Shown here piece by piece: positions 48,401 to 51,400 of a DNA stretch of 64,000 bases. The stretch is from Paraspadella gotoi (Eukaryota; Animalia; Chaetognatha). Both the position numbers and the translations under genes were made by a program. Under the pieces are notes generated by a model. That model saw only the letters and a program-made list of their open reading frames with translations. It was not told the DNA's origin and ran no database searches. The stretch spans positions 21,505,532-21,569,531 of the forward strand of contig CM119270.1 of the NCBI GenBank assembly GCA_051294375.1, written 5' to 3'. How positions within the stretch are numbered: position 1 is the first letter of the stretch; the number at the start of each line of letters is the position of its first letter.

Positions 48401-51400
48401 ACACATCCGCCCACACTCTCTCCCCACAACACCATCAACCCAACAGTCCATCAGCAACAAATGGACGGAAGTGAAGCAACTTGTGCCGCAACGCGACCAA
48501 GTGCTGCAGGCTGAGCTGGTGAAGCAGCAGAACAACGAGAGGTTGCGGCAGGCGTTTGCGGCAAAGGCCAACACCGTTGGTCCTTGGATCGAGAGGCAAT
48601 CGGACGCCATCGCCTCGATCCCGTTGCAGATGCAGGTCGGTTGACAGGTGCAGGTCGGTCGACAGGTGCAAGATGTGGCTTGTGTAAAGTAAATTTAATG
48701 AAATTGAATGAAATTGTTATAATTTTTTACGTAATTTTTTTGATATAACAGAATAAGGAAGAGGTAAACTAAAGTAGTGTAAATGTATTCTTTAGATAAA
48801 TTCGTTTACATGTTGGGATTAGATTATTGTTATTCGTGTGATTTATGTTGAATGTTTCTGGGACACAATTGTTTATATGGTTATGTTATATAATGACCAC
48901 ACCGAGATTGTTTTCGATTCATTTTAAAAGGCAAAAGGCCAAAGCCCTGGTGACATTGAACGACTCTTGTTGTGTCCAAAAGGCCAAAAGGTAACGAGGC
49001 CATATTGCCAAACGGCCTCCAGGCCAAAAGGCCAAACTTCATCAAAATGATTGTAATTACGAATCTGAAGAAAAAATTAAGATCGATTTTTCAAATCGAA
49101 TCATGAAGCCGCGTGGATTGATCACTTTCGATCGGTTGCAATCAATAAATTGTGGTAAAACCAATCATTTTCGTTTGGTGAGATCAGGTTCGTTCCCTCG
49201 AGAAGAAGAAATAAATTTTTTGCGGTGGATGAATGGTCGGGTTTCTGCTGATGAATGGGATGAGCAAAGCGGTTTAACTTCGTTGGAGATGTTAAAACCT
49301 GATTTTTCCGGAAAAAGTTCGTCCAGTCGGCCTAAGAATAATTTTCACAGGCAGCCAACAAATTTGTGCTTTTCGTCGCAATGTGGTAATATTTCTATTG
49401 TAGGCCAAATGTTTAATCCAATCTGAGTATAAATAACTTAAATACGTAATCGAAAGGCAATTATTTTTTGAAGGCGCGCTGACTGAATTCAGTATTAGGG
49501 GACTTGATTCCAAAAGCAAAGGCTAAAGCTGACCAAAATTAAGTTCCAATCTAACAAGGATTTGACGTCTTTTAAATTTTCCCGCTCAAAAAAAAAAATC
49601 AAACAAAATGACATCGTTCCGATTCGTCCCGCCAACGCCCTCTTCAGTGCAACGGCCCATTCTCCTCTTCCGACGGCGTCGACGCGCTGCTTCGCGGCGT
49701 CGCCGACCTCCTCGACGGCCGCGCGGCGTCCGGCGGCGCTGCCGCTGGTCTAGCGGGCGGCGCCGCAGGGCTGCCGGGCGGCGCTGACGCGCTGATACTT
49801 CAGGCGAAGATGAGCCTCAATGAGGAAGAGGCGAGGAAGGCCGGGATCACTTCTCTCGGAAATGGTAGAGGGAGAGGGAGAGAGGGAGGGAGAGGGAGAG
49901 AGGGAGGGAGGAAGTGGGCGCGGGAGAAAAGGATCTGAAGAAAGGGCGATAATAAAAGAAAAATAGAAAGGGAGAATCAAAGAGGAAAAATCGGAAAGAA
50001 AGGAGTTTAAAATAAGTAAAATAAAAAAAGGAAAGAAAGATAATAAAAATGGGAGAGAGAGAGAGAGAGAGAGGAAGCTTGAGAATTATAAGAAGAGGAG
50101 GGAGAGAAACAGAGGGCGGAACAAACATTTGAAACTGAGGGAAGGGCTAGAAAAAAATAGAAAAAGATATAAGTCATTATAATAATACAAATGGAAGATG
50201 TAATGACCAATTGAGTCACAAACATAACGAGTTATATCTTTTTGTATCGCCCACTATCCCGGTCGTCGTCGTCTTCGTCGTCGTCGTCATCTTTCGTCTT
50301 CCTCGTTGCCCTTCGCCGCGACACTTTGCCATTTTCCTCAACACTTCGCTGTCACACTTCTCCGTCTTCCTTCGCCATCTCCCTTCGCCATCTCCTCCTC
50401 TCTCATCAGACGGTGGCGCTCGCGATCGAAATCTCGACGCCATCTATCGTCAAAACGAGAAGAGACGTCGACTGCTTCTTTCCTTCAGCGACGAAGGAGA
50501 CGAAGAAGCTCCTTCCTCGATCAGGCGCCTGGTGGAGGACCTGGTCAGCCTGATATGATGGAAAAGGGCGGGGGAGAATAGAGACCGGCGATGCGGTGTC
50601 CAACACGCGAGATTCACTTGTGTTTCAAGATGATGATTAATTGCTGTGTGAGAATCACACAAGACACTGTGTCACACCAAGTTTGAAAAACGCAACATTT
50701 ATGCTCACGTTTCTGGAGATAAAAGCCGCGCCGCACACCGGGTTTCGTAGTTTCGAAGGTCGTTTTCAGCCGTTCGTTGTCGGCTCTTGTTCGTTTGTTC
50801 TGTATTTTTTTCGATGCAAATATTACAAGGATTTTTACCAATTCGTTTTTTATTCCTCACAGTTGAATTTTTTTATTTCACAAATTTCAAATTTTATTTC
50901 TTTGATTCGCACTCGGAAGTTTCTTCTTGTTGATTCACGATGCAAAACTTTGAAAAAAAGTAAAAGAGTTAATCGATTAATTTCTCCAATGCAACGATTG
51001 CCTTTCTTGTCATCAGGGAACTCTGGAGCAGCAGTTGCAACGTCTGAAGCAATACCAAGCCGCCGTGATCTCGTACAAACCGAACATGGACGAGCTTGAG
51101 AAACACAATCAGGTATGAGGAGGACAGGTTGGGTCTTTTTTGCAGAAAACATTGTCATGCCGTGATGTTATGTCAATGTCATGTCTGTTGACAGGAAATC
51201 CAAGAGGCAATGATCTTCGACAACCGTTACACGCCTTACACAATGGAAACTCTTCGTGTTGGTTGGGAGCAGCTGTTGACGGCCATTGCAAGGAACATCA
51301 ACGAAGTCGAGAACCAGGTCCGTTTAAGGGGAGGGCATATTTGTTATTAACTCACTGTTTTTAAGGGGAGGGTTTATTTTTCATAAATTTCTTTTTATTA

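What the first reader, a model, noticed from the sequence alone, without database searches (positions are those of the whole stretch)
49648..50558. Hidden two-exon alternative C-terminus: alpha-actinin isoform lacking most of SR4 and all EF-hands
Seen: intron 12 contains two coding-like GC-rich islands with acceptors. Exon 12 (phase 0) joins 49648-49864 (phase 0 in, 1 out), which joins 50410-50558 (phase 1 in, stop). Together they form a stop-free 121-aa tail with helical-looking and acidic segments and a Gly/Ala linker. The intron between them has the GA-rich start and CT-rich end seen in real introns here. Known: the CaM-like domain and the SR1-SR4 pairing govern ligand binding and antiparallel dimerisation. 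Inference: a ~779-aa isoform would keep the actin-binding domain and SR1-3 but swap the regulatory end for a tail I do not recognise. The donor (gtagag) is weak, and a small nested gene is an alternative explanation.
Basis: partly seen in the sequence, partly recalled or inferred. Interest (0 to 1): 0.78.

Follow-up and report, generated by a model that had tools for sequence, protein, structure and literature searches.

The report
Unconfirmed extra exons inside alpha-actinin
An invertebrate alpha-actinin gene holds two exon-like stretches in one intron that would, if spliced in, likely give this actin cross-linker an unfamiliar tail in place of its regulatory end, but every spliced RNA piece seen across this intron skips them, so the isoform is a candidate only.

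Summary
Intron 12 of a 17-exon, 889-aa alpha-actinin gene holds two GC-rich islands (49648-49864, 50410-50558). They start at the intron's two best acceptors (ranks 1 and 2 of 152) and join in phase into a stop-free 121-codon frame with coding-like codon use.

The isoform is not shown. RNA contigs of this organism and of two relatives join exon 12 straight to exon 13, and one contig runs unspliced across the second acceptor. None of 26 close-relative proteins carries the tail. No homologue of the tail was found.

The splice point lies in the helix A-B loop of spectrin repeat 4. Two in-frame donors inside island 2 allow another reading: a 113/117-aa insertion that keeps the EF-hands.

Best guess (0.33): rarely used alternative terminal exons. 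Rivals: dormant or decaying exons (0.25), a nested small gene (0.17), non-coding GC-rich DNA (0.13), an in-frame cassette (0.12). The organism's genome could not be searched.

The parts
48447..48635 (+). alpha-actinin exon 12 (aa 596-658): end of SR3 and helix A of SR4; phase-0 donor
   Evidence: gene model; AF2 model of relative P0008 has a helix at 594-656 and a loop at 657-660; spliced joints
48991..48992 (+). cryptic donor used in RNA (48990 joined to 51017); the product hits a stop just after exon 12
   Evidence: joint in X8 and X9; translation
49608..49787 (+). out-of-frame ATG in an A-rich context opening a 59-aa Arg-rich ORF over island 1; ATG changed in 2 of 3 DNA-like runs
   Evidence: no Pfam hit
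49648..49864 (+). island 1: candidate exon, 217 nt, phase 0 in and 1 out, 72 codons; degenerate 21-nt (7-aa) repeat at 49672-49797; in-frame ATG at 49810
   Evidence: acceptor rank 2 of 152, donor rank 14 of 118; codon test; repeat analysis
49865..50409 (+). candidate 545-nt intron, G/A-rich start and C/T-rich end (strand-symmetric)
   Evidence: no contig seen joining across it
50410..50558 (+). island 2: candidate terminal exon (phase 1 in, TGA; ends ...VSLI), or a cassette exon ending at 50531 or 50543
   Evidence: acceptor rank 1 of 152; internal donors rank 6 and 12 of 118; lies inside unspliced RNA contig 50302-51043
51017..51112 (+). alpha-actinin exon 13 (helix B of SR4), the canonical partner of exon 12
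   Evidence: joint 48635>51017 in X8, X9, X11, X12

Best explanation
The two islands are likely genuine but rarely used alternative last exons of this alpha-actinin gene: in a few cells or stages exon 12 would splice to 49648 instead of 51017, giving a predicted 779-aa protein. Shown: the splice signals, phases and open frame, that the cut falls in the loop after SR4 helix A, and that the spliced RNA seen skips the islands. Inferred: use of the exons, and what the product does. It would keep the actin-binding domain and SR1-3 and lose SR4 helices B and C and all EF-hands. It would therefore lose the EF3/4-neck clamp, EF-hand ligand binding and part of the dimer interface, acting as an unregulated, weakly dimeric or monomeric actin-binding tether. 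Its low-complexity helical tail ends in a class I PDZ-type motif (S-x-I), as the normal end does (S-x-L); the motif consensus is recalled, not tested.
For: Acceptors rank 1 and 2 of 152 AGs in the intron and sit at the island edges (scores 15.5 and 11.7; real acceptors -5.7 to 16.0 leave-one-out). Phases match exon 12 with no start codon needed. Codon likelihood is reached by 5 and 24 of 1000 shuffles and lies within the range of real exons (-4.04, -4.02 against -3.68 to -4.06). Differences among the six 7-aa repeat units are synonymous in the + frame (17 synonymous / 19 not) but not in the antisense frame (4 / 32), which also has a TAG; two other frames scored as well as the + frame on this test. 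The junction sits in the SR4 A-B loop. The gene has other alternative exons: an EF-region insert present in 20 of 21 close relatives, and an intact duplicate neck exon present in 0 of 16, so intact exons can be missing from these collections. Unchecked AI notes report alternative terminal-exon arrays elsewhere in this genome (leads only).
Against: RNA contigs join across both islands (48635>51017) in this organism (X8; X9 gives the same depth figures and is probably the same library) and in two other organisms (X11, X12). An RNA contig runs unspliced from 50302 through the island-2 acceptor, the stop and on into exon 13. 24 of 26 close-relative proteins that reach the end of exon 12 continue into exon 13, and 0 of 26 into the tail (only 15 of 64 members of the largest cluster were listed). 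No AATAAA or ATTAAA between 50558 and 51016. The donor at 49865 scores 2.9, at the bottom of the real range 2.8-12.4. Three allelic differences fall in island 1, two of them amino-acid changing (R>L, G>C), against none listed in exons 12 and 13 (tiny sample). Synonymous codon use is not distinctive and strand is barely resolved by codon score.
Confidence: 0.33

Rival explanations
1. Dormant or decaying exons: a once-coding two-exon fragment (a lost isoform, a dead nested gene or a captured gene piece) that still looks coding but is no longer spliced or constrained.
For: Coding-like statistics, yet all spliced contigs seen cross the intron without the islands. Island 1 carries 3 of the 7 listed allelic differences in 49236-49732, two of them non-synonymous, so it is no quieter than its flanks. 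A nearby ATG (49608) and a candidate upstream donor (49236) are each altered in some runs.
Against: The frame, both acceptors and the phases are intact, and no indel or stop is listed inside either island in 4 of 4 runs. Three SNPs are too few to test selection.
Confidence: 0.25
2. A small nested gene independent of actinin. On the + strand it would use 49648 as a trans-splice or downstream acceptor and start at ATG 49810 (67 aa) or at a split ATG|GT at 49233-49236 (122 aa). Less likely it lies on the minus strand (acceptor 50549, donor 50411, acceptor 49854).
For: The 49236 donor ranks 2 of 118 and is in frame. Minus-strand splice sites are also strong. Unchecked notes call this an arrow-worm genome with operons and intron-nested genes, and trans-splicing is widespread in chaetognaths (PMC12460157, passages).
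Against: The G of the 49236 donor is A in run X5. The RNA contig over island 2 is unspliced. The minus-strand frame has a TAG in mid-island 1 and non-synonymous repeat divergence. The 67-aa reading leaves 160 coding-like bases as UTR.
Confidence: 0.17
3. Non-coding GC-rich DNA (an intronic regulatory element or low-complexity patch) whose open frame and splice-like edges are coincidental.
For: Open frames arise in 7-20% of shuffles. CpG o/e is 1.32 and 1.38, like the upstream promoter-proximal island (1.31) and above the coding sequence (1.10). Sense and antisense codon scores are nearly equal, unlike 17 of 17 real exons.
Against: Codon-likelihood tests (5 and 24 of 1000), period-3 autocorrelation in both islands, and the two best acceptors placed exactly at the island starts. 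Single real exons reach CpG o/e 1.47. No Rfam family at a meaningful score.
Confidence: 0.13
4. In-frame cassette pair: island 2 would end at donor 50532 or 50544 and splice on to exon 13, inserting 113 or 117 aa into the SR4 helix A-B loop of a full-length actinin (about 1002-1006 aa) that keeps its EF-hands and dimer interface.
For: A G-rich tract follows, as after real donors, and no canonical poly(A) signal. The insertion point is a loop.
Against: The RNA contig 50302-51043 runs unbroken through both donors. Of 130 proteins matching both exons, 127 have no gap, one has -1, and two lepidopteran models carry duplicated actinin sequence, not a novel insert. The amphipathic pattern runs on to the stop and ends in a PDZ-type motif (inference).
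Confidence: 0.12

Closest known systems
Alternatively spliced alpha-actinins: vertebrate ACTN1/ACTN4 exon 19a/19b (EF-hand 1) and Drosophila Actn isoforms (PMC4550062, passages)
   Same: A single invertebrate-type ACTN gene (CH-CH, 4 spectrin repeats, EF-hands) diversified by alternative exons; this gene has such exons at the neck and in the EF region.
   Different: The known events swap or add short exons in the ABD region or the CaM domain and keep four repeats and the EF-hands. The passages read describe none inside SR4 and none that removes the CaM-like domain.
Human ACTN2 C-terminal frameshift or truncation alleles (e.g. p.Phe835Serfs*66, p.Q830Hfs*73; PMC13149166 passages; PMC11537131 listing only)
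   Same: Actinin with the EF-hand end replaced by foreign sequence.
   Different: Those are disease mutations downstream of an intact SR4, not a programmed isoform. Here SR4 itself would be cut after helix A.
Alternative terminal-exon genes (lola / mod(mdg4) type; recalled, and named in unchecked notes on this genome)
   Same: A constant front joined to a start-less terminal cassette.
   Different: Those have arrays of paralogous domain exons with observed junctions. Here there is one orphan low-complexity tail and no observed junction.

Membership tests
alpha-actinin (host gene) | Tandem CH domains, four spectrin repeats, C-terminal EF-hands | tested here: met
   889-aa model from 17 exons; close relative P0008 has CH x2, Spectrin x4 and EF-hands and aligns end to end with PDB 1sjj and 4d1e
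Alternative terminal exon isoform | In-phase acceptor downstream of a constitutive donor, open frame to a stop | tested here: met
Alternative terminal exon isoform | Spliced transcripts joining exon 12 to 49648 and 49864 to 50410 | tested here: inconclusive
   Neither joint is listed in any of the 8 runs laid, of which 4 show spliced joints across intron 12 (X8, X9, X11, X12; X8 and X9 probably one library); contigs drop rare forms
Alternative terminal exon isoform | Own poly(A) site after the stop | tested here: inconclusive
   No AATAAA or ATTAAA in 50558-51016; variant signals not tested; no raw reads available
Alternative terminal exon isoform | Purifying selection or conservation in relatives | tested here: inconclusive
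   No homologue found; 2 non-synonymous and 1 synonymous allelic differences; no related genome could be searched
Nested (intronic) gene | Own 5' end (promoter or trans-splice site) and start codon | not testable with these tools
   Candidate ATGs at 49810 and 49233; contigs cannot show starts or strand
Repeat or transposon-derived fragment | Further copies in the genome, terminal repeats | tested here: inconclusive
   No second copy in the window, no convincing terminal repeats; whole genome not held

The most novel reading that the evidence does not exclude
A lineage-specific, programmed alpha-actinin isoform that breaks spectrin repeat 4 after helix A and replaces the whole calmodulin-like end with an orphan helical tail ending in a PDZ-type motif: an EF-less actin tether used in a rare cell type. 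If the unverified arrow-worm label is right, one candidate is the secondary muscle with its unique two-sarcomere organisation (PMC2020476, PMC4254178 passages; the link is speculation).
Probability: 0.3. Interest if true: 0.58.

Novelty: new variant of a known kind. Interest (0 to 1): 0.3.

Why it matters
Actinin architecture is described as nearly unchanged across animals (PMC4550062), with splicing confined to the ABD region and the EF-hands. A natural isoform without most of SR4 and all EF-hands, or with a 115-aa loop in SR4, would be a natural test of how much SR4 and the CaM-like domain contribute to dimerisation and regulation. My searches listed no paper whose title or abstract start reports such an isoform; open-access text only. 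As it stands there is no transcript support, so the value lies in a cheap RT-PCR test.

Tried and rejected
No RNA holder was listed as on record; X8 and X9 are RNA by their spliced GT..AG joints. Neither proposed junction is listed, although two minor cryptic joints are (47959>48447, 48990>51017; contig depths 6.65 and 10.8 against 719 for the canonical one). Island contigs have depths 6 and 9.4, like other intron pieces (3-11). The tool warns that contig depth cannot rank parts of a gene and that absence is not shown, so this is a hint only. Relatives X11 and X12 leave the islands uncovered at 80% likeness, apart from a 38-nt scrap just upstream of island 2; uninformative for a fast-evolving tail. 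X5-X7 show about twice the depth on the islands: unexplained (GC bias, second copy or library type). Homologue searches were blank: island 2 against longer proteins (0 of 35 candidates) and near-length proteins; island 1 by phmmer over 1.84 billion representatives (0 hits); ESM Atlas best scores 0.80 and 0.87, bacterial, leads only; Pfam on + frames, minus frames and the Arg-rich ORF gave nothing at cut-off; Rfam only E 0.41. The metagenome scan gave one locus, L001, a chance match inside a long bacterial-type ORF (6 of 64 parts scanned). The two islands were always searched separately, never as one protein. Single-sequence AF2 of island 1: three helices, pLDDT 64, pTM 0.40, too weak for a fold search. 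P0139 (782 aa) looked like the isoform by length but is an N-terminally partial canonical actinin. A protamine-like reading of the Arg-rich ORF is disfavoured: its ATG is altered in X5 and X6, and Arg-richness follows from shifting a GNC-rich frame. The genome was not held and the genome index did not complete, so copy number and orthologous introns are untested. Lek et al. 2010 was not held (nothing seen). (bacterial promoter scan on 11 bases) was irrelevant. The donor matrix included one mis-registered site among 17, and both matrices are small.

Full report
Host gene. The window holds a complete alpha-actinin gene on the + strand, 17 exons from 36359 to 53232, all introns GT-AG, encoding 889 aa. 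Named hits to exon 12 are arthropod actinins at 59-73% identity; unnamed proteins from JGI, MERC, ENA and Logan reach 98-100%. A close relative, P0008, has the full CH-CH / 4 spectrin / EF-hand layout.

Observation. The islands are the two most CpG-dense non-exonic stretches inside the gene. With small matrices trained on this gene's own introns, the acceptors at 50410 and 49648 rank 1 and 2 of 152 AGs in intron 12. The donor at 49865 ranks 14 of 118 and scores at the bottom of the real range. An open frame alone is weak evidence (jointly 0.07-0.20 of shuffles). Codon likelihood is better than shuffles (5 and 24 of 1000), synonymous usage is not (397 and 339 of 1000). Island 1 contains a degenerate 21-nt repeat whose units differ synonymously in the + frame (17 / 19) but not in the antisense frame (4 / 32); two other frames did as well as the + frame on this test. 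So the islands are coding-like, probably + strand, but less clearly so than the gene's real exons.

Transcripts. Twelve runs were listed, none on record as RNA; I laid eight. X8 and X9 show spliced GT..AG joints with identical depth figures and are probably one RNA library of this organism. They join 48635 to 51017, as do X11 and X12 from two other organisms. Two minor cryptic joints are listed (47959>48447 in X8; 48990>51017 in X8 and X9), but no joint uses 49648, 49864, 50410, 50531 or 50543. Island 1 lies on an isolated 177-nt contig (49664-49840). Island 2 lies inside a contig that runs unspliced from 50302 into exon 13, as pre-mRNA or DNA would. All are contigs, which drop rare forms, so this shows that skipping occurs, not that inclusion never does.

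Relatives and variation. Of 142 proteins held, 28 were picked as close relatives and 26 of these reach the end of exon 12: 24 continue into exon 13, one reads into intron-like sequence, one diverges earlier, none into the tail; none of the 142 matches either island at E<1. Only 15 of 64 members of the largest cluster were listed. As a control, an EF-region alternative exon (52257-52307) occurs in 20 of 21 relatives, but the intact duplicate neck exon (44057-44149) in 0 of 16, so these collections can lack an intact exon. Searches for homologues of the islands were blank. Four runs share three differences from the window in island 1 (R>L, silent, G>C); none is listed in island 2 or in exons 12 and 13; four more differences lie in 49236-49608 in some runs, including the G of a candidate donor and an ATG. 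This is one haplotype block and too little to test selection.

Structure and mechanism. In an AF2 model of P0008 built from 29 actinins, the rod is well predicted (pLDDT mostly 80-90; the CH domains are not). Helix 594-656 ends just before the exon 12/13 boundary at residue 658, in the loop 657-660, before helices 661-694 and 707-734. The terminal isoform would keep only helix A of SR4 and lose the EF-hands. [quoted passage not shown] I infer a poorly dimerising, unregulated actin-binding protein with a new tail. Island 1 alone is predicted as three loose helices at low confidence. The tail ends in S-x-I, a class I PDZ-type end like the canonical S-x-L (consensus recalled). Because the junction is a loop, the alternative reading is structurally milder: two phase-0 donors in island 2 (50532, 50544; ranks 6 and 12) would make the islands a 113- or 117-aa in-frame insertion in full-length actinin.

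Comparison with what is known. Known actinin splicing concerns the ABD region in Drosophila and EF-hand exon 19 in chordates (PMC4550062, passages). C-terminally altered ACTN2 is known as disease alleles (PMC13149166, passages). Searches (listings and abstract starts) showed no natural EF-less or SR4-interrupted isoform, and 'chaetognath' with 'actinin' gave 0 papers. Lek et al. 2010 could not be read, and no supplements were opened. If the arrow-worm label is right, trans-splicing is common (PMC12460157, passages), which makes a start-less acceptor compatible with a nested gene too, and the phylum has an unusual secondary muscle (PMC2020476, PMC4254178, passages); linking the isoform to it is speculation.

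Verdict. Observation confirmed; interpretation undecided. Rarely used terminal exons 0.33, dormant or decaying exons 0.25, nested gene 0.17, non-coding 0.13, in-frame cassette 0.12. No genome was available (genome index unanswered), so copy number and orthologous introns remain open. Interest 0.3, down from 0.78: the only direct data show skipping, and the tail has no detectable relative.

Noticed in passing
window 43840-43932 and 44057-44149 (+): Tandemly duplicated 93-nt neck exons (62% identity over 29 aa to relatives' neck sequence), both with intact AG/GT and phase 0/0, 124 nt apart: likely mutually exclusive variants of the neck that binds EF3/4. The second copy occurs in 0 of 16 relatives' proteins.
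   Followed up: partly
window 52257-52307 (+): Unlisted 51-nt in-frame alternative exon in the EF-hand region; 20 of 21 close-relative proteins carry a matching 17-19 aa insert.
   Followed up: partly
window 42173-43839 (intron 5): Two relatives (P0130, P0137) carry a 26-aa Pro-rich exon before the neck; no counterpart was found in this gene by tblastn.
   Followed up: partly
window 47960 and 48991 (+): Cryptic donors inside introns 11 and 12 are used in RNA contigs; possible recursive splicing or noise. The 48991 product has an early stop.
   Followed up: partly
window 15977-27000 and mirrored 24300-28100: Two inverted near-copies of a polyhomeotic-like gene (SAM-domain-like ends near 16300 and 28090; family recalled from the translations), upstream of actinin.
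   Followed up: no
window 58142-58279 (+): Exon with a signal-peptide-like start and a basic RQKR site before a GT donor: possible secreted peptide precursor; no Pfam hit.
   Followed up: partly
window 49497-49855 and 50302-50840: DNA-like runs X5-X7 show about twice the contig depth on both islands compared with flanks; cause unknown.
   Followed up: no
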